DNA of 64,000 bases from Bacteroidota bacterium (GCA_041158445.1 JBEBBJ010000002.1:6672-70671); one strand, 5' to 3'. Positions 41,101-56,844 are shown, counted from the first letter of the stretch. Numbers and translations: made by a program. The notes: a model not told the origin generated them from the letters alone.

Positions 41101-44100
41101 CAGTAGGTGTTCTTATCGGTAAAATAAGTGACAAAGCAGGCAATCTAAATTCAGGAACAATTTCTTCTACGGTTGGTGCAGGAGCTACGTTAAAGGATTT
41201 GTATGCGCCAAGTTTGTCATTAGTGGTAAAGGGAAGTGATGCAGTAGCTATTAATGCAGGAGCCACAGTTCAAAAAGCGCCTTATGTATTTACTTATACT
41301 GCTGATGAAGCTTTGAGTGCATCTACTTCAATTACATTAGCGAATTTAAGTACGTATTTTAATGTTACTGGTACTTCAATTGCCTCTGTTACTTATGATG
41401 CAATAAATAAAAAAATTACATTAACTACTTCAAGTTCTATTACCGATGGGACGACTATTACTATTGCCGTAAAGACTAAAACCTTGTCCGATGTGGCAGG
41501 GAATTTAATGCGAAAAAACAATAGTTTTAGTTTTATACATAATACTGCAGCCATATCATTTGGTGGTTATATATACTCTACCATCGGAGGCAAAAAAGTC
41601 GGTGTTAGTACTATTACGGGTAATGGAACATACAATAAAAATTATTTCCAAATAAATACTTTTTGGTATGGTATAAATGGTGCTTTCAATGCTACTAATG
41701 GATATAATAAGTTACTGAATTGGGGAGGGTCCGCCCAAAATGGTACCATTGCGAATAGTAATTTTTCAATTAAAGTGTATCAAGCTGATGGAGTAACAGA
41801 AATTCCTGGTGCTGCTACATTGATTAATAGTGCGAATAATAGCTACACTAAAACAGATGAATTTGGGAATACTCAATACACTATTCAGGCTGATTTTAGT
41901 TTAAATTTTACACCTAATGGAACGGAGAAAATCACCTTTGGTCCTGTAAATGATAACACCTTTAAATTATCGGGTAGTAATAACCCGTGGCTAGCTAGTC
42001 AATCTTCTACTTTGACCGAATTGCCTGATCTAAGGAATGATGTTTCAATAACAGTTAAGGATGGAAATGGAGTAGATTTACCGGCCATGTCAACATTAAT
42101 TTCTGGAGGAACATTGTTTTCAAATACGACTCCAACTTCCATTACGAATGTTATCACTACTGATGTGATTAAAGTAAAAGTGAGTATTCCAACTTCATGG
42201 AATTCTATTGCAACTTATTTAACAAGTGGTTCACCAGGTTCTTTAACCACATTTGCAACACTTACTGATTATGTTAGAAGTACTTTATTTATTAATAAAT
42301 TGCCAACTTCAGGTAGTACATTGTCAACTTTATCTAATGGTTCGGATTATGTTTTGGAAAACTTTGTTACCTCAAATAACGGATTGACATGTGAATTTGA
42401 TTTGCGATTTATTAATAAAATAGATGCCACTAATTCAAAGTTTGCCTATTTTTCTTTAGGACAATTTTTTGGAATACCACCAGGGGGATATCAACAATTA
42501 TTTTCTGCCTATAATACAGCTGGAGTCAATACGGCAATAAATTCTACAAACTCTCCTCAACTGTATTACTATCTTGAAAATGGAATAACCCCATATATGT
42601 ATGCAGGACCTGGAGTGTATAGGAGTTATGGAGTAATTTATGCCTTTAGTGAGGTCCAGGGTTATGGTTCAATTAAAGTTACATCTACCGTTCAAGCTAG
42701 TACTAAAAAAGTATTAGGAGTTTACGATGTGGCTAATGAGAAATCACTCCCAGCAAATACATTCATTTGGTCTGTAAAAGATCCAGATAAAAATAAAGTA
42801 GCAGACACAAGGTTGCCAGGAGGTACTAGTAATGGATTTCCTGTATTTTACGGTGATCAATTTAATACGATTGATTTCTCAAACAATACAATGCCTGCCT
42901 CTGGATCTTATTTGATGAATTGGGCAAACTTTAAATCATCTCCCTCCTCATCCACATATAGTAATCACGATAATTGGGGATTCGGACAAGATTTACGAGA
43001 TGGTTGGAATAACGTAATAGTTTCAGCTGCCAGTAGAAAGGTAAATATCTATGCATACGAAAAAAGTGATGGAACAAGCCGTTCAATAGTTAATTATACA
43101 TCAGGGCCCACTGGAACATGGACTATACAAAAGCAGTTTAAAGCAACAAACAGTGTATTAGGATCTAATGACCTTTGGTTTATTACTGGTGCACCTACAA
43201 TTGCTTCAGCAGCTCTTGATGATATGGTTGCAAATCCATCGGATTATTATTATAGCACGGTTACAAACATGGATTTTGGCAGTACTCAAACAGCTACTGC
43301 ATCTAAATCCTATAAGTCAAAAATGGTATTAACTAGCGATGTGCAAAACGTAGCAGGTGATGCAGGTGATTTTACCGTTAATGATTTGACTTTTACTTCT
43401 ACCAATTCGGCTGTTACTATTTCCAATAAATCATTGACTAGAGTAGATGCCAAAAATTATACTTTATCTTTTGATGTATCAGGTTATGGAACTTCTACCA
43501 TTAAAATAAACATACCAAATAATAGTTATAAAAATACCTTAGGCGCATGGAATAAAGAAGACTTTACCGAGGCCTCAGCTATGGAATTTGTGTATCAAGG
43601 TCCATCCACTCCTGTAGTGACCCCGCGTGCTTTACCTACCATTTCCATGGAACTAAAAAGTGCTTTGGGTACGGTATTAAACGGTAAAACTAATTTGAAG
43701 GAAAATTTAAATTTAGAAGTCACCTGGGCAACAGCGGGTTCAACTTACACAAACACTTCTGATATTTATAATACCTATAATGATCCATTATTCTTAAAGA
43801 ATAATAATTTCTTAGTGACGGATAATACAGATTCTGATGGAGATGGTACGCCGGATTATTCAGCACAAGTTCTTTCTTCTTCTTTGATGTACCGTTCGGG
43901 AGATACGCGTTATCCGATAGGAGTTAAACTAGGTTTGAAAATTAATCTCGATCCTACACCTTATACATCTGGTTCAGGTAATAATACCACGGCAAATCAA
44001 TTCAAAGATGCACAATCTGTAAATATACCACGGAATATTTCGTTTACTATTCCGGCCAATACCTTTGCATTAGTACCTACCGACTATGTGGTTAGTACTA

Positions 44101-47100
44101 CTGCTACTCCTACTTCGTATGATTGGACTACTTATTTAGCAGCTGCAGGTACGGTTTCAAAGACAACAGCAGATACCTATAGTTTTGTGTATAGTGGTGG
44201 CGGAACAAGTCCTACTATTTCAGCTACGACTAATGGAACTGCACTGATTTCTGGCGATAAAGCTTATGCCACACCGATTACAATTACCACGGTTTTTGAT
44301 AGGTCGATCGATGCGAACTCTATAAGTTTATCCGACTTTGATATTACAGGTGCTACTGCCTCTTCTGGGACATTATCAGGAACAACCTACACGTTTACAT
44401 TAACTCCATCTAATGTGAGTTATTCGAATATAACGGTTTCATTAAGAGCTGGTACGATTTCTGATACGTATGGGAATGCAAATCTAGCTTCTAATGAGTT
44501 TAGCTTAACTTATGATCACAGAGCGCCTACACCTACGGTGTCCTTATCAGATGGAACAAATGTGTTAAGCCAAAACGAAATAACCAGTAAATCCCCGCTA
44601 TATGCAACTGTTTTATTTGATTCAGATGTAACGGGTTTTGACCTAACTGATATAACGAATTCAATTACCGGCGGTACATATGTGACTAATTCATTAGTTC
44701 AAAGTGGCCGCTTGTATTCATTCACAATAACACCTACTGCAAATACTGCTCTTACCATTTCGGTGCCTGCTGGAACTGCAACCGGGGTGAATAATGTATC
44801 ATCTGTTGCATCAAATACTTTAACAGTTACAAATAGTTCTAATTCAAGTGTATTATTATCGGCGTATAAAAATACGATATCAAATAACGTGACTTCGACC
44901 GTTAGTCTAAGCAATAACGATGTTGTTTTACAATCGCCTGTTTACATAAATTTAGCTAGTTCCCAAGCTTTTGCAGGAACACTTTCTATGACAAACTTTA
45001 CGCTATCTAATTGTACGATTACCATTACAAATAATGGGAATGGCAATTATTTATTAGAAGTAAGTCCTACCGCTGCAGGTGATTTCAGCATTAAAATGCC
45101 AGCGAATTCATTGGCGAATAGTTTAGGAGGCCAAAATTTAGCTTCTAATGAAATCATTTTAAATTATGATAACCAGGTTCCCATCATCACAGGATCGGTT
45201 TTAAATCAATCTCAAAATAAGATTACGGTAACCTTTGATCAAGACATTTATAATGCAGTAAAGTCGGGAACCTTCACTGCCACTGATCTCACATTAAGCT
45301 TAACAGGAACAGGATCTCATGCTACTTTGGCTTCCACTGCAATATCAAGCATTGTAACTACTTCTACTAATTCAGTAGTCATTACCTATCAATTAAATCA
45401 ATCACCCGCTCCTAATGGAACAGAGGTAATAACCATTCTACCTGCGTTAAATTCGATCATGGATGCGAATGGGAATTTTGCTAGCAATACTACTCAATCA
45501 AATAACCAGGTTAGCTTAGAGGACGTTAATCCCTTAACAGTTACTCTTTCTGTTTCAGAGATTGACGGAAGTAATAACGATATTATAGCAAATGGCACAT
45601 TTGTTGAGAGTCAAACCTTATCAATCACTTTAAGTAAACCAGTCCAAAGTTTAGACTTATTGGATTTTGCTGTTACGAATGCAGTATTAAGTGATCTGAC
45701 CTACATAGACGATACACACTATTCCGCAATTGTTAATTATTCTCCTACTGGATCAAACATTATTACAGTACAATTAAATGCAAATGAAATTCAGGATTTA
45801 GGTGGAACAATGAATTCAGCATCTAATACACTGAGTTACACGTTTAATCAGCGTACGGAAGTAACGGTTTCTGTGTACGATAACTTTGGTCGATTATTAA
45901 GAACCGGAGCTACTGTAAAAAATCCAAACATTCGTGTGGTTATGGTGGCAAGTGATGAGCCATCAAGTTCAGGATCAGATGCTTTAGAATTAAACGATGT
46001 TTTAGTTAGTGCAACTAATTTAACGGGCTCTAGCTATACTACGAGCAATTGGTCTGGAACAGGGTATGTACGCTCTTTTAATATGGCTATTGGAGACGCG
46101 AACAAGTTATTCTCTATTTCAATTCCTGCAAATAAGTTTAAAGGGTCAAATACTAATTCGAATAACGTAGTTTCTAACGTATTTGGTATTACTTATTCTG
46201 CGCCTAATAATCCACCAGCAATCGCGGCTAGGGTTTATGCTTACCAAGAAGATGCTTCGAATTTATCTCTTGATTTATTAGACGGCATTACAGACCCAGA
46301 ATCAAATAGCCTCTCCATTTCAAATATTACTTTAAAGTATTTAGAAGCGACAGGTGGAACCAGCAGTTTCTTGGGTGTTACAAACAGCTCTAGAGTGACG
46401 AAATATGAGAATATTTCGAAATTAGCTAACCTAGTAAACAACCAAACTCTACCACTTACGTTTACAAGTTCCAAGTTCTTAAGAGGATCAGAAAAGGCGA
46501 AATTCCAATTAACCTATAAAGTATATGATGGGACAACTTATGTTCCCGTAACTCGAAATATAGAAATCCAAGGTTTAAATACTACACCTAGGTCTAGTGC
46601 TAAGAATGTGACGAATATAGATCCATCTACTTTATTAAGGGAAGGGGGGCTTGTTCATGATAATTTGGAAATGACCGATGATGACGATGGAGATCAAGTA
46701 GGCTTAATTTATGTGGATGACTCAGGAAATGAACAAACGATTTCTTCGAATACAATCATCAATTTGTCTTCCGGAACGTTAACTCTTACAGCTAATGGAG
46801 CATTTGATTTTAAAGCAAATTCGAATGCCTATGGCACACAAGCATTTAGGTATAAATTACTAGATAATGCTAGTTCTGTAAATAGTAAATCTGGTATTTA
46901 TACGGCTACTATTCAAATTACAGAAACACCTGATGCTGATGGTATTGATACTAAAATGGAAGTTTTAGGTAAATCCCGAGATATTAATGGTGATGGTATT
47001 GATGATAGAAAGCAAAATAGTATTACCCATTTCCCAATGGGTTCTAAAGCAGCCTATGATAATGCTGTAGATTGGGTGGCAGGAACTAATCCAACGGCTC

Positions 47101-50100
47101 CCTCACAATCTGGATTTGGGGCAATTTTAGTTGCTAAAGTTACTGATAACGCTAAGGCAAAACGAACGTTATCTTTAAACTCAGCTTCAGAATTAGATGT
47201 CTTAAACTTTAATTCAAGGCTGAGTAATGTTAGTACAGTTGCAAGACCTGTTTCTGTTCCTAGTTATGTTGCTTTTGAAAAAGATCCTATTTCATTTTCT
47301 GTCGTAGGCGAGAATGGTGGTTCATTAATTGATATGGATGGAGATGCTACAAATGGTATTCAACAACGTATTATTATTGATTTGCCTTCTGGTTACAAGG
47401 GGTCTACCTATTTGAAACAAAATGCAAATGGCACTTTCAGTTCATTCTTAGATGACCAGGATTTATCTACTTGGGATAACGGAGCAACCTTGTTTGACAC
47501 AAATGGTAAAACAAGAAATGAACAAGGTTTTAATAAGGATCAATTAGCTAGAATCGTTGTTACTATTACCGATAATGGCCCAGGTGATGCCGATAATACG
47601 GTAGGCAGAATTACTGACCCTGCTACATCCGGCTTTATATATCCATTAATTAATGATGCCTCTGCTACTTCAGTTAATGAGAGAATCACTACAAATACGG
47701 AATTATATGATATAAATGATGCGAATTCGAGTGCCGATACAGATGCGGAGGCTCAAGCTTTAACGTATGCCTTAACAAGTACAAACTCCACCTTATTAGA
47801 TGCTGTACAAATTAATAGTACTGATGGAAAAATTACGGTTAAAGACCAGGTTAAATTTGATTTCGAATTATTTAAAGCCGCTGGCTTATTATCAAACGAA
47901 ACAACGGTTAACAATAAAATAGTTAGTGGTACACTTTCTATAACAGTTCGTGCAACAGATACCGATGGATATACTGATGATGCAACAATTGCTCTAGTTA
48001 TCAAAAACATTAATGAATCTATTAGTATTACAAATGCATCTGGAGGCACTATTACTACCTCTGTTAATGAGAAACAAACATCAACAGGACTTACGATTGC
48101 GACTGCTGATGACGATCAATTAACGGGTGACGCAGCGACATTTACTTTATCCGGTACAGATGCGTCTTATTTTAGTATTTCATCTACAGGAGTTATTACC
48201 TTTAATGTAGCACCGGTATATGCGGCAGGTAAAATATTATACAACTTTAATGTAACTGCGACGGATATATACAGAGGATCAGCTGGCACTGATGCAGCTA
48301 CTTCTGCAACAAGTGCGGTAGTTATTAACTTGTTAGATATTACACCTCCTACTTTAAGTACAGTAGTTCTATCTAGTTCAAATAATAATTCTTCCGTTGC
48401 AAAAACGAACGATGTACTTACGCTTAGTATTACTGCTAATGAACCAATAACAACTCCTGTTGTTACAATAGCAGGCCAATCTGCAACAGTTACGGGGACA
48501 TCTAGCACCTATACGGCGACATTTACTGTAACTAATTCGACACCTCAGGGCACAGCCACTATTTCTGTAACCTATGTCGATGTAAATGGTAACCCTGGAA
48601 CTGCTGTAACAAGTACGACGAATAGTAGCACTGTGGTAGTGGATACAGCAGTACCTACACTAGGAACGGTATCGGTTAGCAGTAGCAACACTAATACCAG
48701 TCAAGAAGCTATTCAAACGCCGACAGTGACAGTAGCTGGACAAGTTGCATCAGTCACAGGAACGGGTTCAACTTACGCTGCCACCTATACGGTAACTAGC
48801 AATACGCCACAAGGAACGGCCTCCATTAGTGTGACATTTAGTGATGTGGCTAACAACCTAGGAACTGCGGTAACTAGTACGACGAACAGTAGCACGGTGG
48901 TTGTGGATACAGCAGTCCCAACTTTGTATACGGTGGATTGGATTCCGGCTTCTATAGATAATGCTAATTTCCGTAACGTAGGATTTACTTTAACAAACGC
49001 AGAACTAGGAGCTACTTATTCTTACATTATATCAAGTGGAACGTCTAGTTTGACGGCCTCTGGAACCGTGACTAATTCGACTCAGGTAATTGGAAATATC
49101 AATACAAGTACATTGCGTGATGGTATAATTACCTTAAGCTTAAAGATTATTGACCAGGCGGGTAATTCAGGGTTAGTGGTTACTGACACCATTAATAAAG
49201 CAACAAATGGTGGACCGACAGGAACTCCTACTCCTATTACCTTATCTCAAAACGACCCAGATCAAACGATTAATCTATTAAATGGTATCACTGATGCCGA
49301 AGGCGATCCACTCACCGTCAGCAACGTAACGATTTCTTATTCGATTGAAAATGTGGTGACGAATCAGCCAGTGGTGATTAATTCTACCTTGTTGACGAAG
49401 TTCCAAGATGTTGTCTCCACTTCGGATTTAACGGGAACGAATTTATTCATCGAAATGAGCAAGTCGAAGTTCTTGAACGGCTCACAGAAGGGACAAATTA
49501 ACATCGCTTATGTGGTGACGGATGGGAATAATAACCTAAATGCGAACGCGGTCTTAAACATCATAGGTGCAAATGACCAGCCTACAGGTTCGGCCGTGAC
49601 TTTAAACCAGGTCGTGATTAATGGCCAAAACATGGGTATTCCATTAACCGAGGGAGTAGGCGTAAGCACGAACGTACCAGGAATCGATCCGGATGATGAT
49701 TCGGTGACCTATACCTTAGATCAAAACTCTTCCGTTTCTAACGGACAATTCGTCTTCAATCCGGATGGTTCATTTAATTTCTTGCCAGATGCAAACTACT
49801 ATGGTGAGCAAGAATTTGACTATTACATTAAAGATCAAAGTGGGGTCTTAAATGGTCCGTACAAAGTAAAAATTGTCATCGCAGAAAACCCAGATATTGA
49901 TGGTATTCCATCGAAATTAGAAGAGGTGGCTCCTAATGGGGGTGACGTGAACGGTGATGGTATTCCGGATCGTAAGCAGAATAATATCACGAACGTGCCT
50001 TTAGGTTCTTTTGCAGATTACCAAGCGGGAATTGACTGGGCGAATGGTGTTCCGGGTGCTACGCGCCCTTCTACTTCGAAAGTAGGATCTCTCTTAATCG

Positions 50101-51974
50101 GATCTCTTCCTGGTGGTAAAAGTGGGTTGGATTCACTTGATTTAGATCCGAATGCGAAATTCAGAAATGTAGCTTTATTGCCTACGCCTAACATCGCAAA
50201 TACGGATCGCCAATTCTCGTCTGACTTGTATCAATTCACGATCGAAGGTTTACTAACAAACGCAGCGGATACACTTTCGCCACGCTTACCTCTGCGCGAT
50301 TTAGATCCTACTAGACCAGGATTACAGGTTCGTGCGGTATTGGAATTCCCAGTGGGAATGAAAGGTTCTACTTATTTGAAACAGAATAAAGCAGGAGAGT
50401 GGAAGAGCTTTAAGGACGATCAAAATCTGGCGACCTATGACGATGGTGCCACATTAATCGACTTAGATAATGACCCTAGTACGATTGAACGTATTGTGTT
50501 GACGTTCACGGACGGAGCTTTTGGGGATAAGGATACTTTAGTGAACAACTCGATTAGTGACCCGGGTGGGTTGGGAATCATTAAGCCGGTGATCGATGAT
50601 GCGACGCTTCCTACCCGTGCGGAGGGAGTGGCTACAGCGACTACCTTGTTTAATGTATTCGAAAGGAACTCCCGATTAGATGTGGATGAAGAAGGCCAAA
50701 AACTCTACTACACCATCGACTCCACTAACAACTCCGCTGCGGTTCGGGCGGCCGTTAAAATCGACTCCTTAACTGGGGTGATTACGGTGCGCGATGCGGG
50801 CGGTTTTGACTACGAATCTTTTGTGGATGCGAATGGCTTAGCGAAGTTTAACATCGTGGTGAAGGCGACTGATACGGATGGGAATTTTGACTTAGCGACC
50901 TTTACTCAGACGATCACAAACGTAGACGAATATCCGCGCATCATTTCAGGTAAAACGGTTTCGTACCGCGAGAAACAGCCGACCACGGTGGCCGTGATTA
51001 AGGTTCAAACCTTACCGGATTACCAAGATTTAACGAGCTTCTCGATACTATCAGGGTTAGATGGAGCCTTCTTTACCATAGATCCTGCTACAGGAGTCTT
51101 GCGTTTCAAGAACAGCCCTAATTACGATGATAAGCCTGTTTATACGCTTGATATTCAGTCTCAAGATTTAAGTGGCAAAACGGATCACGCGGTGTTTACG
51201 GTGAACATCATCGACATCGATGCGGATAATGATGGCATTTTAGATGACGAGGAAATAGGTCCAGATCCATTAAATCCAATTGATACAGATAAGGACGGAA
51301 TTCCGGATTACAAAGACACAGATTCCGATGGGGATGGTATTCCAGATTTATTAGAGTCGAAATCTGATACGGACAAAGATGGTATCCCAGATTACTTGGA
51401 TACGGACTCGGATGGTGATGGTATTTTGGACAAAATCGAAGCCGGCCCTAATCCATTAAAACCACTAGATTCAGATGGTGATGGCATTCCAGATTTCAGA
51501 GAATTGGATGCGGATAATGACGGCTATCTAGATAGCTATGAGAAGAGTATCGATACGGATAAGGATGGTATTCCAGACTTCCAAGATACGGACTCAGATG
51601 GAGATGGTATTCTGGATAAGGTGGAGGATGACCTGGATTTTGGCAATATCAAAGACTGCGATCATGACGGAATCGAGAACCGCATCGACCCAGATGTGTG
51701 CGATCTGATTCTGCCGCAAATCATCACACCGAATGGCGATGGGATGAACGACGTGCTGAAGATTCCAGGTATTATGCGCCTGCAACCTAATCACATCACG
51801 ATTATTAACCGCTGGGGTGCTGTGGTGTATGACGCAGAAAATTACCAAAACACCTGGGGTGGCACAGGTGACTCCGGTGAATTGCCAGACGGAACGTATT
51901 ATTATGTCGTCGACTTCAAGGGAGCGAAACCGACGATTTCGAACTTTATTTACTTAGATCGCACAGGAAAATGA
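38115..51974 (+). CDS. Giant (4619 aa) T9SS-secreted adhesin with type-B (gliding-motility) C-terminal sorting domain
   Basis: N-terminal signal-like segment (..ASLSVVLFSLILPVVKTQGQ). Many Ig-like/cadherin-like modules. TSP3-type DxDxDGxxD repeats at ~51210-51690 (DTDKDGIPDYKDTDSDGDGIPD..). The C-terminus ..ITPNGDGMNDVLKI..INRWGAVVY..GTYYYVV.. is typical of the T9SS type-B CTD. Confidence 0.9.
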   Translation: MSIKSRLQRFASLSVVLFSLILPVVKTQGQTAQFQLTESDGLNPYLYVIEKSSGRVFMNNTLSDNSIHGRIYLPKGDYHTSDATVTYLGEAANDAVIQVYSYKTDRLYPNINAALFITQSGKAYLYQLDLGGYDVWNPQWKGNTPRLVSVGSNEVVIGGRLMNESITQTNYAMNLYLITQSGKLFKSAWTMGTAGGYNTSTEVTGVSGITRISGNDKDKLFLLTSSNALYLRKDFGRSGGGLGNFLVNISSLPAGRTISKIVSNTNGDFALLDNGTVFSMGIEMANGTVTASFVALPSGPTYNSGSGNLGEESNNKITKIAAAGDKIAFITEKGQVYLAGSDLVAMPVDHLANVTQSLSTDRDKHWLLSKQSGQSLFGGSASPTYDFYGDNSESAATGFAFYDNGRFAIQDNANNIFIYGGRRYNTNTTNWSASASDYTNVDVKIGANYVGLPMVDYATNGILNSYVSDVTKPVYTLTPVNFKSGERHNSRTFQFKLEVSEMPLVPPTNFINTVINTGTGAATVSNVKFISDFTLAKKAVDQKYIYTFDVVISGTSTIYDVDVNLPLGVIKDRRGNIADGTSTFKLLLDLSPTTVTLLNRVVTKDVAKGKWYVDIQATPNRIYTPSSPDKKLLPSSFQLEQNYYGSAPASFNEIAEIGNGIYRLYFAEDFSTSTYRNEDLGWQFHAGNIVDFNQQSIELYGGLSYRLGFLTGKEGPNFITFIDARKPTPVISGVSNTNNPSNGSKGFKIHIPHEYVSLTEGEGDNTKIGKDDIVITVNGTTVTNTTSYISNFRKTEFYNARGTNYFDIGRWWPSEQTSIFAYQDWEFTLTPPAGVEGTITVSVGANTFADARGNTNVVSNVYSWTHDITPPTISNIVVSADNKYAEVTFSEDVNFVNNASGVLTPADFALSMATNSGNAFLASSDLIPINPDFSTSNATYVGVNPVTKIASNKIKVFFKSSYTSDAGPAEIQDEGPSDRNFDVRSVKKAKGVEQLTVGVLIGKISDKAGNLNSGTISSTVGAGATLKDLYAPSLSLVVKGSDAVAINAGATVQKAPYVFTYTADEALSASTSITLANLSTYFNVTGTSIASVTYDAINKKITLTTSSSITDGTTITIAVKTKTLSDVAGNLMRKNNSFSFIHNTAAISFGGYIYSTIGGKKVGVSTITGNGTYNKNYFQINTFWYGINGAFNATNGYNKLLNWGGSAQNGTIANSNFSIKVYQADGVTEIPGAATLINSANNSYTKTDEFGNTQYTIQADFSLNFTPNGTEKITFGPVNDNTFKLSGSNNPWLASQSSTLTELPDLRNDVSITVKDGNGVDLPAMSTLISGGTLFSNTTPTSITNVITTDVIKVKVSIPTSWNSIATYLTSGSPGSLTTFATLTDYVRSTLFINKLPTSGSTLSTLSNGSDYVLENFVTSNNGLTCEFDLRFINKIDATNSKFAYFSLGQFFGIPPGGYQQLFSAYNTAGVNTAINSTNSPQLYYYLENGITPYMYAGPGVYRSYGVIYAFSEVQGYGSIKVTSTVQASTKKVLGVYDVANEKSLPANTFIWSVKDPDKNKVADTRLPGGTSNGFPVFYGDQFNTIDFSNNTMPASGSYLMNWANFKSSPSSSTYSNHDNWGFGQDLRDGWNNVIVSAASRKVNIYAYEKSDGTSRSIVNYTSGPTGTWTIQKQFKATNSVLGSNDLWFITGAPTIASAALDDMVANPSDYYYSTVTNMDFGSTQTATASKSYKSKMVLTSDVQNVAGDAGDFTVNDLTFTSTNSAVTISNKSLTRVDAKNYTLSFDVSGYGTSTIKINIPNNSYKNTLGAWNKEDFTEASAMEFVYQGPSTPVVTPRALPTISMELKSALGTVLNGKTNLKENLNLEVTWATAGSTYTNTSDIYNTYNDPLFLKNNNFLVTDNTDSDGDGTPDYSAQVLSSSLMYRSGDTRYPIGVKLGLKINLDPTPYTSGSGNNTTANQFKDAQSVNIPRNISFTIPANTFALVPTDYVVSTTATPTSYDWTTYLAAAGTVSKTTADTYSFVYSGGGTSPTISATTNGTALISGDKAYATPITITTVFDRSIDANSISLSDFDITGATASSGTLSGTTYTFTLTPSNVSYSNITVSLRAGTISDTYGNANLASNEFSLTYDHRAPTPTVSLSDGTNVLSQNEITSKSPLYATVLFDSDVTGFDLTDITNSITGGTYVTNSLVQSGRLYSFTITPTANTALTISVPAGTATGVNNVSSVASNTLTVTNSSNSSVLLSAYKNTISNNVTSTVSLSNNDVVLQSPVYINLASSQAFAGTLSMTNFTLSNCTITITNNGNGNYLLEVSPTAAGDFSIKMPANSLANSLGGQNLASNEIILNYDNQVPIITGSVLNQSQNKITVTFDQDIYNAVKSGTFTATDLTLSLTGTGSHATLASTAISSIVTTSTNSVVITYQLNQSPAPNGTEVITILPALNSIMDANGNFASNTTQSNNQVSLEDVNPLTVTLSVSEIDGSNNDIIANGTFVESQTLSITLSKPVQSLDLLDFAVTNAVLSDLTYIDDTHYSAIVNYSPTGSNIITVQLNANEIQDLGGTMNSASNTLSYTFNQRTEVTVSVYDNFGRLLRTGATVKNPNIRVVMVASDEPSSSGSDALELNDVLVSATNLTGSSYTTSNWSGTGYVRSFNMAIGDANKLFSISIPANKFKGSNTNSNNVVSNVFGITYSAPNNPPAIAARVYAYQEDASNLSLDLLDGITDPESNSLSISNITLKYLEATGGTSSFLGVTNSSRVTKYENISKLANLVNNQTLPLTFTSSKFLRGSEKAKFQLTYKVYDGTTYVPVTRNIEIQGLNTTPRSSAKNVTNIDPSTLLREGGLVHDNLEMTDDDDGDQVGLIYVDDSGNEQTISSNTIINLSSGTLTLTANGAFDFKANSNAYGTQAFRYKLLDNASSVNSKSGIYTATIQITETPDADGIDTKMEVLGKSRDINGDGIDDRKQNSITHFPMGSKAAYDNAVDWVAGTNPTAPSQSGFGAILVAKVTDNAKAKRTLSLNSASELDVLNFNSRLSNVSTVARPVSVPSYVAFEKDPISFSVVGENGGSLIDMDGDATNGIQQRIIIDLPSGYKGSTYLKQNANGTFSSFLDDQDLSTWDNGATLFDTNGKTRNEQGFNKDQLARIVVTITDNGPGDADNTVGRITDPATSGFIYPLINDASATSVNERITTNTELYDINDANSSADTDAEAQALTYALTSTNSTLLDAVQINSTDGKITVKDQVKFDFELFKAAGLLSNETTVNNKIVSGTLSITVRATDTDGYTDDATIALVIKNINESISITNASGGTITTSVNEKQTSTGLTIATADDDQLTGDAATFTLSGTDASYFSISSTGVITFNVAPVYAAGKILYNFNVTATDIYRGSAGTDAATSATSAVVINLLDITPPTLSTVVLSSSNNNSSVAKTNDVLTLSITANEPITTPVVTIAGQSATVTGTSSTYTATFTVTNSTPQGTATISVTYVDVNGNPGTAVTSTTNSSTVVVDTAVPTLGTVSVSSSNTNTSQEAIQTPTVTVAGQVASVTGTGSTYAATYTVTSNTPQGTASISVTFSDVANNLGTAVTSTTNSSTVVVDTAVPTLYTVDWIPASIDNANFRNVGFTLTNAELGATYSYIISSGTSSLTASGTVTNSTQVIGNINTSTLRDGIITLSLKIIDQAGNSGLVVTDTINKATNGGPTGTPTPITLSQNDPDQTINLLNGITDAEGDPLTVSNVTISYSIENVVTNQPVVINSTLLTKFQDVVSTSDLTGTNLFIEMSKSKFLNGSQKGQINIAYVVTDGNNNLNANAVLNIIGANDQPTGSAVTLNQVVINGQNMGIPLTEGVGVSTNVPGIDPDDDSVTYTLDQNSSVSNGQFVFNPDGSFNFLPDANYYGEQEFDYYIKDQSGVLNGPYKVKIVIAENPDIDGIPSKLEEVAPNGGDVNGDGIPDRKQNNITNVPLGSFADYQAGIDWANGVPGATRPSTSKVGSLLIGSLPGGKSGLDSLDLDPNAKFRNVALLPTPNIANTDRQFSSDLYQFTIEGLLTNAADTLSPRLPLRDLDPTRPGLQVRAVLEFPVGMKGSTYLKQNKAGEWKSFKDDQNLATYDDGATLIDLDNDPSTIERIVLTFTDGAFGDKDTLVNNSISDPGGLGIIKPVIDDATLPTRAEGVATATTLFNVFERNSRLDVDEEGQKLYYTIDSTNNSAAVRAAVKIDSLTGVITVRDAGGFDYESFVDANGLAKFNIVVKATDTDGNFDLATFTQTITNVDEYPRIISGKTVSYREKQPTTVAVIKVQTLPDYQDLTSFSILSGLDGAFFTIDPATGVLRFKNSPNYDDKPVYTLDIQSQDLSGKTDHAVFTVNIIDIDADNDGILDDEEIGPDPLNPIDTDKDGIPDYKDTDSDGDGIPDLLESKSDTDKDGIPDYLDTDSDGDGILDKIEAGPNPLKPLDSDGDGIPDFRELDADNDGYLDSYEKSIDTDKDGIPDFQDTDSDGDGILDKVEDDLDFGNIKDCDHDGIENRIDPDVCDLILPQIITPNGDGMNDVLKIPGIMRLQPNHITIINRWGAVVYDAENYQNTWGGTGDSGELPDGTYYYVVDFKGAKPTISNFIYLDRTGK

Positions 51975-52864
51975 GAAAGATAGTATTAGCAGCGTTTCTA
52001 TTTTTAGGGGGACACGTCGTTTCAGCCCAAATCGAATCGATGTACTCGATGTACCAAATCAACCCCATCGTCTCTTCGCCAGCCTATGCAGGCCTAGTGG
52101 CGAATGGCGCGAAAGGGGAATTCGTCGCTATTAATCGCCAGCAATGGATAGGCGTGCAGGGTTCGCCACGCACCTCGTTGATGACGGGAAATTACCAGTT
52201 GAAACCGAAGATCGGGATAGGCGCCATTTTAGCGACCGATCAAGCGGGTCCTTTGCGCATTACAAGCGTGTCTGGTGATTTAGCGTACTCGGTTCGTTTG
52301 AATGAGGACTGGAAGATGAATGGCGGACTACGTCTTTCATTAGCGTCCGTTTACATCGATTATGCGGGACTTACGGCGATCGATATCAACGATCCCTACA
52401 TCCAAGTCAATAAGTCGACGGGGTTAAAAGCAAACACCGGTTGGGGCCTACATTTCGCGCATCGCGGGGGTAGCTTCTTATCAGTTTCGCAACCTCGGGT
52501 GCTGAGCTATGATTTTGGCAATTTATCCGGTGCGTTTAAGGACGTTTCGTATTTCTATTTGCAAGCAGGAACGGCTATTCAGGCGGCTCCGGGGATTCGT
52601 GTGAGCCCATCGGTGATGGCGCGTTTAGCTTCATCGACGCCATTTAGCTGGGATGCGAACGTGATCGTGAATCTACAAGAAAAAGTGGATGTGGGTCTGA
52701 TTTACCGCGATAAAATCAGTTATGGAGCGCGTGTAGGTGTACCTTTTTCTAAGAAAGTGTATGTGGCCTACACGGGAGAATTTCCGCTGGCGACCTTGAA
52801 TGCGTTTGGGGTGCAGACGCACGAATTAGCGCTTAAAATTTCCTTATTCGAGAAACAAAAATGA
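51971..52864 (+). CDS. PorP/SprF-family T9SS membrane protein
   Basis: 297 aa; signal peptide then ..SMYSMYQINPIVSSPAYAG.. (PorP/SprF N-terminal signature). ATGA overlap with the adhesin stop. Confidence 0.85.
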   Translation: MRKIVLAAFLFLGGHVVSAQIESMYSMYQINPIVSSPAYAGLVANGAKGEFVAINRQQWIGVQGSPRTSLMTGNYQLKPKIGIGAILATDQAGPLRITSVSGDLAYSVRLNEDWKMNGGLRLSLASVYIDYAGLTAIDINDPYIQVNKSTGLKANTGWGLHFAHRGGSFLSVSQPRVLSYDFGNLSGAFKDVSYFYLQAGTAIQAAPGIRVSPSVMARLASSTPFSWDANVIVNLQEKVDVGLIYRDKISYGARVGVPFSKKVYVAYTGEFPLATLNAFGVQTHELALKISLFEKQK

Positions 52865-53931
52865 GATCATATACACTAGTCTTTTTCCTGTGTGCCGTTT
52901 CGTATTTTTCATACGGCCAAAAATCCCTTTCCTTCTCCCTCGGTTCCACCGCTCGCTCTTTACAACAGGCATCGAACCGCCGAGATGTGCTTTTGGATTA
53001 CACTTCTGTGGGTGCGCAGTTCAGTTATTTCACTTCGCCTAAAGCAGAGCTTTTTAGCGGTGTTTCGTATGGTTTTCAGTCATCGGGTACTGCTAAGTTT
53101 GCTGGCGCGCAGGCCGGGATGCGGTATTTTCTGAACTTGCCTTTGCCTGCGCGCCTTCGGGTGTTTGGCCAATTTGCGGGGGAGGTTTTGTTAGATAATT
53201 CCTATGCGATTACGAACCGTGATGCTGATTTTATCGGTGCGGCTGGTGCAGGATTTGACTTTAAAATTTCGTCTGCTGTATCCTTACGTGGCTCCGCAAA
53301 TTTAGGGTTGCCCTTCCTTTCAACCGGGTCTTTAAGCCCGTACACAAACAGTGGATCTAATTTTACAGCAGGGATCGGTTTAGTGTTCTTATTGCCTTCG
53401 AAGAAAGAGGCTGTTGTTGCGCCTGTTATTGTGGTAGTGGAGGAGCCAATTGTTGCGGCTGTTGCGAGTCCTGAACCTGTGAAAGCCACAGTTCCTGCAC
53501 CGGTAATTAAAGAGCAAGCACCTGTGGTAGCTGTTGCGCCTGTTGATGAACGTGCTGAGCCAGTTGCTGTGCCTGCTGCGGTAGTGGTGGCCGAAGTGAA
53601 TTTGGACAGCTTATTCAATAAAGAAATTTACTTCAAGACAGATAAGTCTTGGGTGGGTCCTGAGTCTGCCAAAAAACTCGATTTAATCGTCGCTTTAATG
53701 GCAAAATATCCGGACGTGAAGGTGCACTTAAAAGGACACACAGATTACCGAAAATCAGAGGATTACAACTTAAAACTTTCTGCGAAGCGGGTGGAGAATG
53801 TGCGTTTGTATTTAGTTAAACACGGGGTAGCTGCAGCCCGTTTTAAAGCGGAGGCATTCTCCGAAGAGGTTCCAGCCTCTAGAACAGATTTACAATTAAA
53901 TCGCCGGGTGGAAGTCCGGATTTGGAAATAA
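52861..53931 (+). CDS. OmpA-family protein (beta-barrel-like N-domain, P/V/A-rich linker, OmpA C-terminal domain)
   Basis: C-terminus ..LKGHTDYRKSEDYNLKLSAKRVENVRLYLVKHGV..NRRVEVRIWK is an OmpA_C peptidoglycan-binding domain. ATGA overlap with the upstream gene. Confidence 0.85.
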   Translation: MRSYTLVFFLCAVSYFSYGQKSLSFSLGSTARSLQQASNRRDVLLDYTSVGAQFSYFTSPKAELFSGVSYGFQSSGTAKFAGAQAGMRYFLNLPLPARLRVFGQFAGEVLLDNSYAITNRDADFIGAAGAGFDFKISSAVSLRGSANLGLPFLSTGSLSPYTNSGSNFTAGIGLVFLLPSKKEAVVAPVIVVVEEPIVAAVASPEPVKATVPAPVIKEQAPVVAVAPVDERAEPVAVPAAVVVAEVNLDSLFNKEIYFKTDKSWVGPESAKKLDLIVALMAKYPDVKVHLKGHTDYRKSEDYNLKLSAKRVENVRLYLVKHGVAAARFKAEAFSEEVPASRTDLQLNRRVEVRIWK

Positions 53932-54185
53932 TGAAATCTATTCGCTTAAAATATTGTAGCGCCCAAGGCTGCACATTTAAGTTTGTGAACAAAGCAAATC
54001 TGAAAGAACACGTTATTTCAGAGAAGGATGGAGTTGTTTTTATACGCTTGTTTTTAAAGACAGGAGAAGAGATTTCGCTATCTGGCGTATCTGAGACGGT
54101 AGAAATAATTAACCTGCGCTGGTCGCGGTTTGAGACTTCGGATGAGATCTTTTTTGATCTCGCAGAGTTCGAAGTGATAAATTAA
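53931..54185 (+). CDS. Small hypothetical protein (84 aa), last gene of the adhesin operon
   Basis: ATG 53931 overlaps the OmpA stop (TAATG). A terminator follows at 54205-54236. I recognise no family. Confidence 0.45.
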   Translation: MKSIRLKYCSAQGCTFKFVNKANLKEHVISEKDGVVFIRLFLKTGEEISLSGVSETVEIINLRWSRFETSDEIFFDLAEFEVIN

Positions 54186-54236: not shown

Positions 54237-54647
54237 CATTATAAGGGTTTACTTTTCTTTTGGGCAAGTTTTTTTGTATTTAAGGTTTAAAGCGTACAAT
54301 CCTATTATAAATCGTTTATTTTTTACATTATATAAGCGGATGTTTCCAGTTAGTTTTGAGTGTTTGAAAAAGGCGGGCTAATTACAAAGTATTCCGATAA
54401 AGGGAAGAGAGTACTTGAATTCTGGTGAAAAAAACTGGAAAATTTTTAAATCAAATTTCGAGGCTTACTGGATTGAGAATCATTTTTTTCCAGAATTTTT
54501 GTTCTCGAAAGTAAGTATCCCCCTGTATTTTGAAGTTTTTTGTCTATTACTAGTCCTGGGATACCTAGGGAGGGAAGGGGGCTAGGGGCTGATCAAACAT
54601 GATCATAACTTAAGTTTACTGGATTATGATGAATTGAAAAAAGGTCA

Positions 54648-55262
54648 CTATAACCTATTCATGAGTTTTTTGATTTTGGTTATAGTGTTAATGTTTAATC
54701 CAGTAATCTTTGCGACTTCTGATCCTTTGTAATTCTTTTTTATAAGTTCCATCGCTCGCCTATTCTTCACTTTAGATAAAAATTTCAGCGGGTCTTCTTT
54801 GGTATTGGGTTTTCTTCCTAAATATACATCCCCTTTGAGCTTTGCTAGAGCGACCCCTTCTTTCTGTCTCTCTAGCGTGAGCTTTCTTTCCATCTCCGCT
54901 ACGACCCCAAGAATCGAAATCACCATTTTAGAAATTGGATTTTCTTCCCCATTTTCATGGATGGTACAAAGTCCTTGGTTGATAAACTTAACAGGGATTT
55001 TTCTCTCAGTAGTATATTTAATAAAAGAAAGAATGTCATGAAGATCTCTTCCACACCGATCAATTTGCCAAATAGATATACTTGATACCAAATTCAGGTC
55101 GATGAGTTTTTTAAGTTCAATCCCGCCGGTTCTAGAAAACATGGAAATACTTCCACTACAACGGTCTTCAATGACCTTATCGAAATCTTTTTCATTTACA
55201 CGTTGTCGGTCTGAGTTTTGTTCAATGGTGCTGCAACGCACATAAAGGATGGAAATACTCAT
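54648..55262 (-). CDS. Serine recombinase (resolvase/invertase family) with C-terminal HTH
   Basis: From the internal ATG 55262: MSISILYVRCSTIEQNSDRQ (catalytic Ser motif). ..IWQIDRCGRD.. and a C-terminal HTH (..VAKITGLNINTITKI). Confidence 0.8.
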   Translation of the reverse strand: MSISILYVRCSTIEQNSDRQRVNEKDFDKVIEDRCSGSISMFSRTGGIELKKLIDLNLVSSISIWQIDRCGRDLHDILSFIKYTTERKIPVKFINQGLCTIHENGEENPISKMVISILGVVAEMERKLTLERQKEGVALAKLKGDVYLGRKPNTKEDPLKFLSKVKNRRAMELIKKNYKGSEVAKITGLNINTITKIKKLMNRL

Positions 55263-55376
55263 AAAATTAGCTTGGTAGGGTGATAAGGCTAATTTCCAGA
55301 GAATAAACCGGTATTGCTGCATTTTTAAGCCGCTTTTTCAAATTTAAAGATGCGCAATAAAAAGTACACCCTAAAT

Positions 55377-55574
55377 TTAGGAGTCCGAATTGCGCTTGAA
55401 GAAGTCATTTAGTAAATCACTAGCCTTTAAGCGGATCTCAAACTCTTTTTGATGTAACCTTCTCCATTCTACAGCAACTGGATCGTCCGATGTAATTAGT
55501 AGATTGAATTCTTCTTTGGTCAAATCAGAAAGTTTCTTAATTGAATTAAGTGGTTTAAATTCTTCAGCTTTCAT
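55377..55574 (-). CDS. Hypothetical small protein (65 aa)
   Basis: ORF only, co-oriented with the recombinase. No recognisable motif. Confidence 0.35.
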   Translation of the reverse strand: MKAEEFKPLNSIKKLSDLTKEEFNLLITSDDPVAVEWRRLHQKEFEIRLKASDLLNDFFKRNSDS

Positions 55575-55942
55575 TTAATATGGATTGAGATTCACGAATG
55601 GGTTAGTTCCCACCTAGTTAAATTACGATAAAAAATAACTAAAAATTGACTTCAAATTGTGGATTATAATACGATTATCCCAAATCTTGAATTTGGTCAC
55701 TACCAGTTCTTCTCTATAGTTCCACTACGACAAAACTTCGTTTAATTTAAACGAAGTAATGGAAAGTTTGTTAGCAATTCCTTAGCATTGGAGCCTTCCC
55801 TTTATCGCTTATTTCCTTTATATTTTAGTAAAGTACATAGTTGAAGGGTTACAGATTCAACTCCAGTACATAAGATATTGATTACCCCCTCATTGTGAGT
55901 AGTTGACTGTAACCAACGAAGCAATGGGGGATTCTTTTTAAA

Positions 55943-56692: not shown

Positions 56693-56836
56693 GCTCTCAA
56701 CGAAGATCGGGAGTGAATCGAGCGAATCATATAAGTCCTTAGGACTTCAAACCCCTCCCCGATTCCGCTCGGCCCCTCCCCCCAAAAAAAAATTAAAAAA
56801 AATATCTACGAGTCTTGATTTATTGATTTATTATAC

Positions 56837-56844
56837 TACCTTTG
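56837..56844 (+). promoter_or_regulatory. Bacteroidota -7 box (TAnnTTTG)
   Basis: TACCTTTG lies 8 nt upstream of ATG 56852, so the mRNA would be near-leaderless. Confidence 0.4.

What the first reader, a model, noticed from the sequence alone, without database searches (positions are those of the whole stretch)
46200..53931. Compositional and codon-usage break inside the giant adhesin gene suggests a chimeric gene
I counted GC by hand in 60-nt lines. The result is about 28-38% across 42000-48420, then about 43-52% from ~48480 onward through the SprF and OmpA genes. The 50521 and 50941 lines give 47% and 52%.

The 3' part uses ACG, CCG, GTG and GCC codons like the housekeeping genes of this window. 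The 5' 10 kb uses A/T-ending codons like the island backbone at 54-61.6 kb.

The gene also contains two colinear paralogous ~1.8-kb super-modules:
- 46200-48010, starting ..LLDGITDPESNSLSISNITL.. and including ..ETPDADGIDTK..NGDGIDDRKQNSITHFPMGS.. and ..GSTYLKQNANG..;
- 49205-50940, starting ..LLNGITDAEGDPLTVSNVTI.. and including ..ENPDIDGIPSK..NGDGIPDRKQNNITNVPLGS.. and ..GSTYLKQNKAG..

One copy sits on each side of the break. This fits recombination between an AT-rich incoming adhesin and a resident host-like adhesin locus at a shared module. The result would be a new N-terminal binding region grafted onto a host-adapted CTD/SprF/OmpA secretion end.
Basis: partly seen in the sequence, partly recalled or inferred. 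Interest (0 to 1): 0.65.

Follow-up and report, generated by a model that had tools for sequence, protein, structure and literature searches.

The report
Mosaic giant T9SS adhesin gene
A 14-kb surface-adhesin gene of a freshwater Aquirufa-like bacterium is a natural patchwork: a rare, AT-rich 10-kb binding part joined to a host-like secretion and anchoring end that close relatives carry behind quite different binding parts. This is a clear but not surprising case of surface-protein shuffling.

Summary
The compositional break is real. Four-fold-site GC is 0.26 over 38,115-48,440, 0.33 over the repeat block and 0.51 from 49,206 on. A change-point test conditioned on amino acids gives LLR 147 against at most 47 in permutations. 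The step coincides with homology breakpoints. From about 49,297 the gene, SprF and OmpA are 97-99% identical in nucleotides to another contig (L011) whose adhesin has an unrelated 5' part. From about 48.5 kb they match L008, which has yet another 5' part at the same locus.

The 5' 10 kb has only one family of relatives (46-47% identity). The two relatives' genes I could read are uniformly AT-rich.

So the gene is a three-part mosaic, and the chimera idea is broadly right. Three corrections apply:
- The two 1.9-kb super-modules are ancient paralogues (35% identity) that both occur in the 5' part's relatives. They are not the crossover site.
- The main synonymous step is at about 49.25-49.30 kb, not 48.45 kb.
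- The window's join at 48,705 is probably a collapsed repeat array, so physical linkage rests on depth and context.

The whole operon plus the integrase island is bracketed by an exact 45-nt tRNA-Asn repeat, so the locus may not be "resident".

The parts
35824..35898 (+). tRNA-Asn (GTT). Its 3' 43 nt plus 2 nt form the left copy of a 45-nt direct repeat (35,856-35,900).
   Evidence: ARAGORN; the repeat finder family D3.
35901..36070 (.). 'X': a terminator-like hairpin and flanking sequence just after the tRNA. In relatives it lies to the right of other inserts or islands at this tRNA.
   Evidence: L019 15,199-15,375 matches W 35,893-36,070 at 87%. L016 carries att followed by 83 nt of X.
36250..37920 (-). 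Divergently transcribed 556-aa gene conserved upstream of the adhesin in the orthologous loci L008, L013 and L014. It is distantly AraC-like and looks like a membrane-bound regulator. Four-fold GC is 0.46, which is host-like.
   Evidence: tblastn gives 80, 74 and 62% aa identity to L008, L013 and L014. BLASTP to P0191 gives E = 9e-9 over a TM segment plus a C-terminal HTH-like region. L010's neighbour gene is annotated AraC-like.
37921..38114 (.). Conserved intergenic/promoter region. Homology between the loci ends a few tens of nt before the adhesin ATG, which marks the left edge of the swapped segment.
   Evidence: MAFFT alignment of W, L008, L013 and L014. blastn W-L008 homology runs up to 38,096.
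38115..51974 (+). Giant adhesin ORF of 4,619 aa as assembled. It has a signal peptide, Ig/cadherin-like domains and a CHU_C type-B T9SS C-terminal domain.
   Evidence: the ORF listing; Pfam hits to CHU_C, Big_12, Big_9 and Cadherin.
38115..48590 (+). S1: the AT-rich passenger region. Four-fold GC is 0.26, and RSCU r is 0.28 to core genes but 0.93-0.94 to the L009/L010 adhesins. Only one family of relatives exists, at 46-47% identity. The right edge is uncertain and lies between about 48,440 and 48,620.
   Evidence: L020 gives an independent JGI assembly identical over 24,350-45,747.
46266..48299 (+). Super-module A (aa 2718-3395), which belongs to S1.
   Evidence: Self-BLAST; module tree.
48381..48908 (+). 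Tandem Ig-like repeats with an 88-aa (264-nt) period. The array is probably longer in reality than in the window.
   Evidence: Repeat unitigs in X1 have about 3.5 times the flank depth. L001 and P0004 carry extra complete units.
48704..48705 (.). Suspect assembly join. The window lacks 42 nt (AKVGDVITVNIVAG) that every other contig has at this point.
   Evidence: L001, L003 and L004 diverge or stop at 48,705. Loose ends in X1 continue into the missing 42 nt on both sides. No run holds the junction words, although only 2 words were sampled. No contig crosses the join in 8 runs.
48590..49296 (+). S2: the 3' part of the repeats plus a 'pre-B' Ig-like domain. Four-fold GC is about 0.33. It is shared with L008 (4-fold identity 63%) and with L001, L003 and L004 (99-100%), but not with L011 or L013.
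49297..51974 (+). S3: module B, the Ca-binding repeats and the CTD. It is host-like (4-fold GC 0.51, RSCU r 0.85 to core). Nucleotide identity to L011 is 97-98% and begins abruptly at about 49,297.
49266..51191 (+). Super-module B (aa 3718-4359).
51208..51638 (+). Thrombospondin-type-3-like Asp-rich (DxDxDGxxD) repeats.
   Evidence: the repeat finder families D1 and D2. The motif is read from the translation.
51708..51956 (+). CHU_C type-B T9SS C-terminal signal domain (aa 4532-4614).
   Evidence: Pfam PF13585, E = 8e-25.
51971..52864 (+). PorP/SprF-family outer-membrane protein. Its start overlaps the adhesin stop codon.
   Evidence: Pfam PF11751, E = 8e-43.
52861..53931 (+). OmpA-family (peptidoglycan-binding, PorE-like in the loose sense) protein.
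   Evidence: Pfam PF00691 at aa 257-344.
53931..54185 (+). 84-aa ORF followed by a terminator hairpin. Homology to the island-less contigs L002 and L011 ends at 54,238.
54239..61666 (.). AT-rich integrase module. It holds a resolvase (54,648-55,322, minus strand), a ParB-methyltransferase, an HTH_17 gene and a tyrosine integrase (60,300-61,532, plus strand). No att copy lies at its left edge.
   Evidence: Pfam and gene calls; junction comparison; att scan.
61667..61711 (+). Right copy of the exact 45-nt tRNA-Asn repeat, 135 nt after the integrase gene.
   Evidence: the repeat finder D3. The att unitig in X1 has about twice the flank depth.

Best explanation
The adhesin gene is a natural three-part recombinant.

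The three parts:
- S1 (38,115 to about 48,500) encodes a rare passenger (binding) region. Its codon usage is that of AT-rich genomes.
- S2 (about 48,500 to 49,296) encodes Ig-like tandem repeats and a short domain.
- S3 (49,297 onward) encodes module B, the Ca-binding repeats and the type-B CTD, and it continues into SprF and OmpA. Its codon usage is that of the host.

Proposed mechanism. This locus consists of a regulator-like gene, a conserved promoter, the adhesin, SprF and OmpA. In Aquirufa-like bacteria the passenger-coding DNA between the promoter and the 3' block is repeatedly replaced by recombination. The CTD together with its cognate PorP/SprF and the OmpA-type anchor is kept as one co-adapted secretion and anchoring unit.

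What is shown here: the composition step, the homology breakpoints, and the diversity of 5' parts at orthologous loci.

What is inferred: homologous recombination anchored in the conserved promoter and in the repeats or module B; S1 came from an AT-rich lineage; the CTD, SprF and OmpA work together as described for Flavobacterium johnsoniae and Porphyromonas gingivalis.
For: Composition:
- The step holds at synonymous sites, with LLR 147 against at most 47 in permutations.
- RSCU r to core genes is 0.85 for S3 and 0.28 for S1. S1 against the L009/L010 adhesins gives 0.93-0.94.

Breakpoints:
- Window against L011 jumps from about 45% to 100% identity at about 49,297. Downstream, 4-fold-site identity is 87-99%.
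- Homology to L008 (89.6% nt) starts at about 48,465-48,620 and runs to the end of OmpA.

Orthologous loci:
- L008, L013 and L014 share the upstream 556-aa gene and SprF, but their 5' adhesin parts are not homologous to the window's.
- L008's adhesin is itself a patchwork of P0010-like, P0002-like and window-like pieces.
- The relatives also show GC4 mosaics.

Origin of S1:
- Only P0034, P0038 and P0121 match, at 46-47%.
- Only 2 of 1.84 billion representatives match aa 1001-2100.
- L009 and L010 have GC4 of 0.18-0.35 throughout. That includes L009's own module B and L010's neighbouring gene.

History of the 3' block: window against L008 gives 4-fold identity of 35% in the flank gene but 63-88% from S2 through OmpA.

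Functional logic: type-B CTD cargo needs a cognate PorP-like protein, and porP-like genes often sit beside porE-like genes (PMC9143113).

Linkage of the two halves:
- Left and right depths co-vary across eight runs: 126/141, 7/5, 37/19, 5/4, 29/28-46, 4-7/6-8 and 3-5/3-8. Two of the eight runs (X4 and X5) appear to be one data set filed twice.
- Two JGI contigs from one sample abut inside the repeat array.
Against: - No single contig or read shown here crosses the repeat array. The window's own join at 48,705 is not reproduced anywhere and lacks 42 nt.
- The 5'-most parts of several unrelated adhesins (L013, L011, L008) and the window's other giant ORF (1-6,915, GC4 0.31) are also AT-rich. Some of the low GC3 could therefore be a general property of such passenger regions and not a mark of recent import.
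- The closest S1 relative is only 47% identical, so no donor is identified.
- The direction and order of the events are not resolved.
Confidence: 0.75

Rival explanations
1. Assembly chimera. S1 and S3 belong to different co-occurring strains. The assembler joined them through the shared tandem-repeat array, so the 4,619-aa ORF does not exist in any cell.
For: - The window's join at 48,705 lacks 42 nt that L001 and the X1 contigs carry.
- L001, L003 and L004 all stop or diverge there, and no contig crosses it in 8 runs.
- Strains with the same 3' block but other 5' parts exist in freshwater metagenomes.
Against: - Depths on the two sides co-vary within about two-fold across nearly two orders of magnitude.
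- In X1 the S1 contig (126), the S3 contig (141) and all four att-adjacent contigs (122-135) have the same depth.
- The S1 contig carries the conserved promoter and the 556-aa gene of this locus, and it ends in the same repeat family with the ORF still open.
- The S3 contig starts with an open ORF in that same repeat family.
- The S1-type gene needs a CTD, and the S3 block needs a 5' end.
Confidence: 0.08
2. No foreign origin. Passenger regions of giant adhesins in this genome are AT-rich because of relaxed codon selection with AT-biased mutation, or because of some expression-related constraint. The conserved 3' end keeps host-like usage.
For: - The other giant ORF in the window has GC4 of 0.31.
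- The unrelated 5' parts in L013 (0.16-0.32), L011 (0.23-0.37) and L008 (0.26-0.36) are also depressed.
Against: - The step is abrupt and coincides with homology breakpoints.
- L014's adhesin is flat at 0.36-0.55.
- S1's relatives sit in AT-rich genomes, and in L009 module B is as AT-rich as the rest of the gene.
- S1 has no homologue at the other orthologous loci.
Confidence: 0.12
3. Reverse direction. An AT-rich, element-borne adhesin operon arrived with S1 and the AT-rich integrase module. Its original 3' end was then replaced by the host-type block (S2/S3, SprF, OmpA, 84-aa ORF) taken from a resident Aquirufa locus.
For: - The 4.9-kb block 49,297-54,238 is 97-99% identical to L011 and L002. 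In the window it is flanked on both sides by AT-rich DNA that those contigs lack.
- RSCU r between S1 and the integrase module is 0.85.
- The whole segment is bracketed by att repeats.
Against: - The 556-aa gene and the promoter to the left of S1 are host-like (GC4 0.46) and syntenic with L008, L013 and L014. S1 is therefore flanked by locus-type DNA on both sides.
- The S1-family gene in L010 sits in a different context.
Confidence: 0.2

Closest known systems
SprB/SprF of Flavobacterium johnsoniae and other type-B-CTD cargo with a cognate PorP-like protein (PMC9143113)
   Same: A giant repetitive surface protein with a CHU_C/type-B CTD, followed immediately by a PorP/SprF-family gene and then by an OmpA-type (porE-like) gene. 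This is the arrangement proposed for non-mobile, wall-anchored cargo.
   Different: Secretion, anchoring and any role in gliding were not tested here. The passenger region has no detectable similarity to SprB, and about 2,400 aa of it has no Pfam domain. The OmpA-family protein has only the C-terminal OmpA domain in common with PorE.
Domain rearrangement and allelic exchange in Porphyromonas gingivalis T9SS surface proteins such as Kgp and HagA (PMC5266723)
   Same: T9SS-secreted surface proteins diversify through recombination that shuffles adhesin domains between strains, in a pattern unrelated to the core phylogeny.
   Different: Those proteins are type-A CTD cargo within one species, and the exchanged variants have similar composition. 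Here the cargo is type B, a 10-kb passenger region is replaced, codon usage differs strongly, and a conserved module B/CTD/SprF/OmpA block is shared between species-level lineages.
Cassette-type locus switching between conserved flanks, as at capsule and O-antigen loci (from general knowledge; not searched here)
   Same: Variable DNA of atypical composition lies between conserved anchors that allow homologous replacement.
   Different: The downstream anchor here lies inside the coding sequence of the same gene, so each swap creates a new fusion protein.
tRNA-integrated genomic islands with a tyrosine integrase
   Same: An exact 45-nt duplication of a tRNA 3' end brackets a 25.8-kb segment, with an integrase and an HTH_17 (excisionase-like) gene beside one copy. 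Close relatives have other inserts at the same tRNA.
   Different: The sequence next to the intact tRNA ('X') is chromosomal flank in relatives. The integrase module is separable from the adhesin operon in L002 and L011. No excision product was seen.

Membership tests
T9SS type-B CTD cargo | C-terminal CHU_C / type-B sorting domain | tested here: met
   Pfam PF13585 at aa 4532-4614, E = 8.4e-25, 87 bits against a cut-off of 27.
T9SS type-B CTD cargo | N-terminal Sec signal peptide | tested here: inconclusive
   The N-terminus MSIKSRLQRFASLSVVLFSLILPVVKTQGQ looks like a signal peptide when read by eye. No predictor was run.
T9SS type-B CTD cargo | Adjacent cognate PorP/SprF-like gene | tested here: met
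   PF11751, E = 7.8e-43. The gene start overlaps the adhesin stop codon. That it is the cognate partner is inferred from adjacency and from PMC9143113.
T9SS type-B CTD cargo | Secretion that depends on the T9SS and on the SprF-like protein | not testable with these tools
   This needs genetics in a cultured strain.
PorE-like anchor | OmpA C-terminal-like peptidoglycan-binding domain, encoded next to a porP-like gene | tested here: met
   PF00691 at aa 257-344. The gene is adjacent to SprF.
PorE-like anchor | The TPR, beta-propeller and CRD domains of P. gingivalis PorE | tested here: not met
   No Pfam family other than OmpA was found in the 356-aa protein at E <= 0.01. It is therefore only 'PorE-like' in the loose sense.
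Recombinant (mosaic) gene | Different segments have different nearest relatives, with sharp breakpoints | tested here: met
   S3 is 97-99% identical in nucleotides to L011 starting at about 49,297. S2 is shared with L008 only. S1 is related only to P0034/P0038/P0121, at 47%.
Recombinant (mosaic) gene | Physical continuity of the segments on one molecule | tested here: inconclusive
   Depth co-variation and context support continuity. No contig or read spans the array, and the window's join at 48,705 is not reproduced.
tRNA-integrated genomic island | Direct repeats of the tRNA 3' end at both ends | tested here: met
   Exact 45-nt repeat at 35,856-35,900 and 61,667-61,711. No other copy exceeds chance.
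tRNA-integrated genomic island | Integrase next to an att site | tested here: met
   Phage_integrase gene at 60,300-61,532, 135 nt from the right att, with HTH_17 just upstream.
tRNA-integrated genomic island | An empty site in relatives that joins the two outer flanks | tested here: inconclusive
   L019 and L021 lack the segment at this tRNA but continue into other genes. L017 and L016 hold the HxlR flank with other left neighbours. In X3 both flanks have depths of 120-400 and the interior 0-13. No contig joins the two flanks.
tRNA-integrated genomic island | Excision into a circle (attP junction) | tested here: inconclusive
   The Logan contigs break at att and cannot tell the two pairings apart. 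L001 supports the integrated form on the right side.

The most novel reading that the evidence does not exclude
The complete operon rides on a 25.8-kb element integrated at tRNA-Asn. The operon consists of the regulator, the 14-kb adhesin, PorP/SprF and the OmpA-type anchor. On this reading, giant T9SS adhesin cassettes are horizontally mobile plug-in units in freshwater Bacteroidota. The conserved module B/CTD/SprF/OmpA block would serve both as the secretion adaptor and as the recombination anchor that lets passenger regions from distant, AT-rich lineages be swapped in.
Probability: 0.35. Interest if true: 0.6.

Novelty: new member of a known kind. Interest (0 to 1): 0.4.

Why it matters
The locus shows, with natural replicates, where a T9SS type-B cargo gene can be cut and rejoined. 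Everything from the start codon to the first residues of module B is replaceable. Module B, the Ca-binding repeats, the CTD, SprF and OmpA travel together. That marks a candidate minimal secretion and anchoring unit of about 900 aa plus two genes, which could be tested in Flavobacterium johnsoniae or a cultured Aquirufa strain. It also suggests how planktonic freshwater Bacteroidota diversify their surface adhesins. In addition, it is a caution for genome bins: the repeat array at the junction is collapsed in this assembly.

Tried and rejected
I could not obtain a genome-wide GC3 baseline or search the genome for paralogues. The window's own 19 core genes served as the baseline instead.

Searches that found nothing:
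- Two genome-contig scans with module B, once as a protein and once as an alignment, found nothing. No GTDB representative genome carries this cassette.
- The one metagenome-contig scan returned a single locus, L010.
- The look-up of encoding contigs refuses proteins longer than 5,000 aa, so P0034, P0038 and P0002 could not be fetched whole. L011 gave only the 3' 9 kb of P0002's gene. The exact 4,619-aa product is not on record.
- No Nanopore or PacBio runs were listed for the junction region.
- A search for runs holding the 48,705 junction words found none, but only 2 words were sampled.

Analyses that led nowhere:
- An AlphaFold model of S1 residues 981-1480, from a 3-sequence alignment, was poor (mean pLDDT 40). 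I ran no fold search on it and took no functional inference from it.

Ideas rejected:
- A decayed internal att copy at about 35,956. It matches 23 of 45 positions, which is within the chance range of 22-25.
- Modules A and B as the crossover substrate.
- Amino-acid composition as the cause of the step.
- L010 as an orthologous locus. Its neighbour gene gave no tblastn hit to the 556-aa protein, and the two proteins align only weakly by BLASTP.


Full report
**What is there.** The stretch lies in one ORF, 38,115-51,974 (4,619 aa as assembled). It has Ig/cadherin-like domains and a C-terminal CHU_C type-B T9SS sorting domain. A PorP/SprF gene (51,971-52,864) and an OmpA-family gene (52,861-53,931) follow, each with overlapping stop and start codons. 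The organism is Aquirufa-like: its MnmG falls in a 90% cluster with Aquirufa species. The window comes from an 82-kb NCBI contig. Aquirufa genomes have 38-42.6% G+C, and the strains glide on soft agar (PMC12528234).

**Checking the observation.**
- The 60-nt lines at 50,521 and 50,941 are 46.7% and 51.7% GC. Mean GC is 0.363 over 42,000-48,420 and 0.458 over 48,480-53,931.
- The contrast is not an amino-acid effect. Four-fold-degenerate GC is 0.26 for 38,115-48,440, 0.33 for 48,441-49,205 and 0.51 for 49,206-51,974. It is 0.61 for SprF, 0.44 for OmpA and 0.39-0.66 (16 of 19 at 0.46 or more) for the core genes at 10-36 kb.
- A two-segment likelihood model of synonymous codon choice, conditioned on the protein sequence, gives LLR 147. 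The maximum in 100 permutations that keep the protein is 47. The optimum is at 49,245, on a plateau from 48,465 to 49,290.
- RSCU vectors correlate with the window's core genes at 0.85 for the 3' part and 0.28 for the 5' part.
- ACG, CCG, GTG and GCG rise.
- The rise in total GC at about 48.45 kb is mostly a GC2 effect of a Thr/Ala/Ser/Gly-rich repeat block. The main synonymous step is at about 49.25-49.30 kb.
- The two colinear super-modules are real: aa 2718-3395 against aa 3718-4359, at 29-39% identity by segment. An 88-aa tandem Ig-like repeat lies between them.

**Do the two halves have different relatives?** Yes.
- The 3' 920 aa has more than 1,000 relatives. The closest are 98%, 95% and 89% identical, and they sit in proteins of 5,492, 2,658 and 3,614 aa (P0002, P0004, P0005). 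The 5' parts of those proteins do not resemble the window's.
- The 5' 3,400 aa has only three real relatives among 5.8 billion proteins: P0034, P0038 and P0121, at 46-47% identity.
- An exhaustive HMMER pass over 1.84 billion representatives, using aa 1001-2100, found only 2 hits, both from that family.
- P0034 and P0038 are colinear with the window over its first 3,400 aa. They then carry a different repeat array, followed by a module B at 55-74% identity. The A-repeats-B architecture is therefore old.
- A maximum-likelihood tree puts the A and B modules in two clades with 100/100 support. Each clade contains both the window and the P0034-type proteins. The paralogous modules were not made by the chimera. 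At 35% identity they cannot have served as a homologous crossover site.

**Natural replicates of the locus.** Contigs L008, L013 and L014 carry the same divergently transcribed 556-aa gene (80, 74 and 62% aa identity), a conserved intergenic region, an adhesin and SprF. L008 and L013 also carry OmpA.
- Homology between the loci is lost a few tens of bases before the ATG and returns only in the 3' part. The replaced segment is therefore the passenger-coding region.
- Against L011 (the P0002 contig), nucleotide identity jumps from about 45% to 100% at about 49,297, inside the motif DAEGDPLTVSNV. It stays at 97-99% through OmpA.
- Against L008, homology (89.6% nt) begins at about 48,465-48,620, in the first repeat unit, and runs to the end of OmpA.
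- The gene is thus at least three pieces: S1 (to about 48.5 kb), S2 (to 49,296; shared with L008 but not with L011 or L013) and S3 (from 49,297).
- L008's own adhesin is a patchwork of P0010-like, P0002-like and window-like pieces. L013, L011 and L008 also show GC4 mosaics. Shuffling appears to be the rule at this locus.

**Which side is foreign?**
- S1's codon usage matches that of the L009 and L010 adhesins (RSCU r 0.93-0.94).
- L009 is a P0034-type gene with GC4 of 0.19-0.35 from end to end, including its own module B.
- L010's version has GC4 of 0.18-0.33. It lies beside a gene with GC 0.32, in a different chromosomal context.
- The architecture therefore does not in itself produce a step. 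In its usual home the family is uniformly AT-rich. This favours S1 as the imported piece.
- The 3' block is not simply resident either. Between the window and L008, four-fold sites are 35% identical in the flanking 556-aa gene (saturated) but 63-88% identical from S2 to OmpA. Against L013 all parts are saturated at 40-49%.
- The module B/CTD/SprF/OmpA block has therefore moved between lineages more recently than the flank diverged.

**Why this unit stays together (inferred from published work).** Type-B CTD cargo needs a cognate PorP-like protein for secretion and anchorage. Many porP-like genes sit beside porE-like genes, which are proposed to tie non-mobile cargo to the cell wall (PMC9143113). 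A swap that keeps CTD, SprF and OmpA intact should keep the new fusion protein secretable. Domain rearrangement and allelic exchange in T9SS surface proteins is already documented in Porphyromonas gingivalis (PMC5266723). This is why I rate the case as a new member of a known kind.

**Assembly caveat.**
- Independent contigs match the window at 99-100% downstream of 48,705 and stop or diverge exactly there (L001/L006, L003, L004).
- L001 and the X1 contigs carry 42 nt (AKVGDVITVNIVAG) that the window lacks, and L001 also carries further repeat units. Repeat unitigs in X1 have about 3.5 times the flank depth.
- No run holds the junction words, though only 2 were sampled. No contig crosses the join in 8 runs. 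The array in the window is almost certainly collapsed, and the true protein is probably longer.
- Linkage of S1 to S3 is supported indirectly. Left and right depths co-vary within about two-fold across nearly two orders of magnitude.
- In X1 the S1 contig (126), the S3 contig (141) and the four att-adjacent contigs (122-135) agree in depth.
- In one JGI sample, a left contig that is 100% identical to the window over 24,350-45,747 has its ORF open to the contig end at about 48,830. A right contig from the same sample starts inside the array. The two abut.
- I give the assembly-chimera rival about 8%.

**An unexpected context.**
- A tRNA-Asn gene lies at 35,824-35,898. Its last 43 nt plus 2 more are repeated exactly at 61,667-61,711, which is 135 nt after a tyrosine integrase gene. 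No other copy exceeds chance.
- The bracketed 25.8 kb holds the 556-aa gene, the adhesin, SprF, OmpA, the 84-aa ORF and the AT-rich integrase module.
- L019 is a 640-kb genome contig about 96% identical to the window on the left flank. It matches the window exactly up to the end of att. It then has a different 3.65-kb insert, followed by 8 nt of att and the sequence 'X', which in the window follows the tRNA directly.
- L021 has the tRNA followed by a hairpin like the one after the window's right att.
- L016 has another integrase island, then att, then X, next to the same HxlR gene.
- L002 and L011 have the operon without the integrase module. That junction is at 54,238, with no att copy.
- In X3 both outer flanks reach depths of 120-400, while the interior next to the tRNA is at 0-13.
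- One model fits all of this. An element whose attP is flanked by the integrase on one side and X on the other integrated into a tRNA-Asn whose native flank is the HxlR side, and it carried the adhesin operon with it. This is not proven. I saw no empty site joining the two flanks and no circle junction.

**Verdict.** The chimera reading is partly supported and needs the corrections above. The finding is a well-documented but unsurprising example of surface-protein mosaicism. The possibly mobile context is the most interesting loose end.

**Limits.** A genome-wide baseline and a paralogue search were therefore not possible.

Noticed in passing
window 35,824-35,900 and 61,667-61,711: A tRNA-Asn gene and an exact 45-nt copy of its 3' end lie 25.8 kb apart. 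Together they bracket the 556-aa gene, the adhesin operon and the integrase module. Close relatives (L019, L021) have other DNA at this tRNA, and L016 has a different integrase island at the HxlR side.
   Followed up: partly
window 48,704/48,705: The join lacks 42 nt (AKVGDVITVNIVAG) that all other contigs carry, and further 264-nt repeat units seen in L001 are missing. The repeat array is probably collapsed in this assembly, so the true ORF is longer than 4,619 aa.
   Followed up: yes
window 38,115-45,300 (adhesin aa 1-2,400): No Pfam domain was found over about 2,400 aa. Residues 1001-2100 match only 2 of 1.84 billion representative proteins. The AlphaFold model of aa 981-1480 was poor (pLDDT 40, beta-rich).
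   Followed up: partly
window 36,250-38,114: The divergently transcribed 556-aa gene has a TM segment and a C-terminal HTH-like region distantly related to AraC-like proteins (E = 9e-9 to P0191). The intergenic region contains blocks conserved across four loci (for example CTTTTGTACTGATAGGGGGAATGGAA), which is a candidate operator or promoter. An AraC-like gene of similar size also sits beside the S1-family adhesin in L010.
   Followed up: partly
window 1-6,915 (minus strand): A second giant ORF (more than 2,305 aa, running off the window) also has low synonymous GC (GC4 0.31; RSCU r 0.84 to S1 and 0.46 to core genes).
   Followed up: no
L008 8-2,068: A second SprF/OmpA/small-ORF set lies immediately upstream of the 556-aa gene, so two adhesin cassettes may sit in tandem in that lineage. 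The small ORF is 76% identical in nucleotides to the window's 84-aa ORF region.
   Followed up: no
L019 11,552-15,190: A different 3.65-kb insert occupies the same tRNA-Asn site in a strain about 96% identical on the left flank. It carries a 117-aa ORF, an AraC-type regulator, an acetyltransferase and an M50 peptidase, and it ends in only 8 nt of att.
   Followed up: partly
window 51,208-51,638: Seven or more Asp-rich thrombospondin-type-3-like calcium-binding repeats (DxDxDGxxD) lie between module B and the CTD. P0010, P0013 and P0017 have much longer versions of this array.
   Followed up: no
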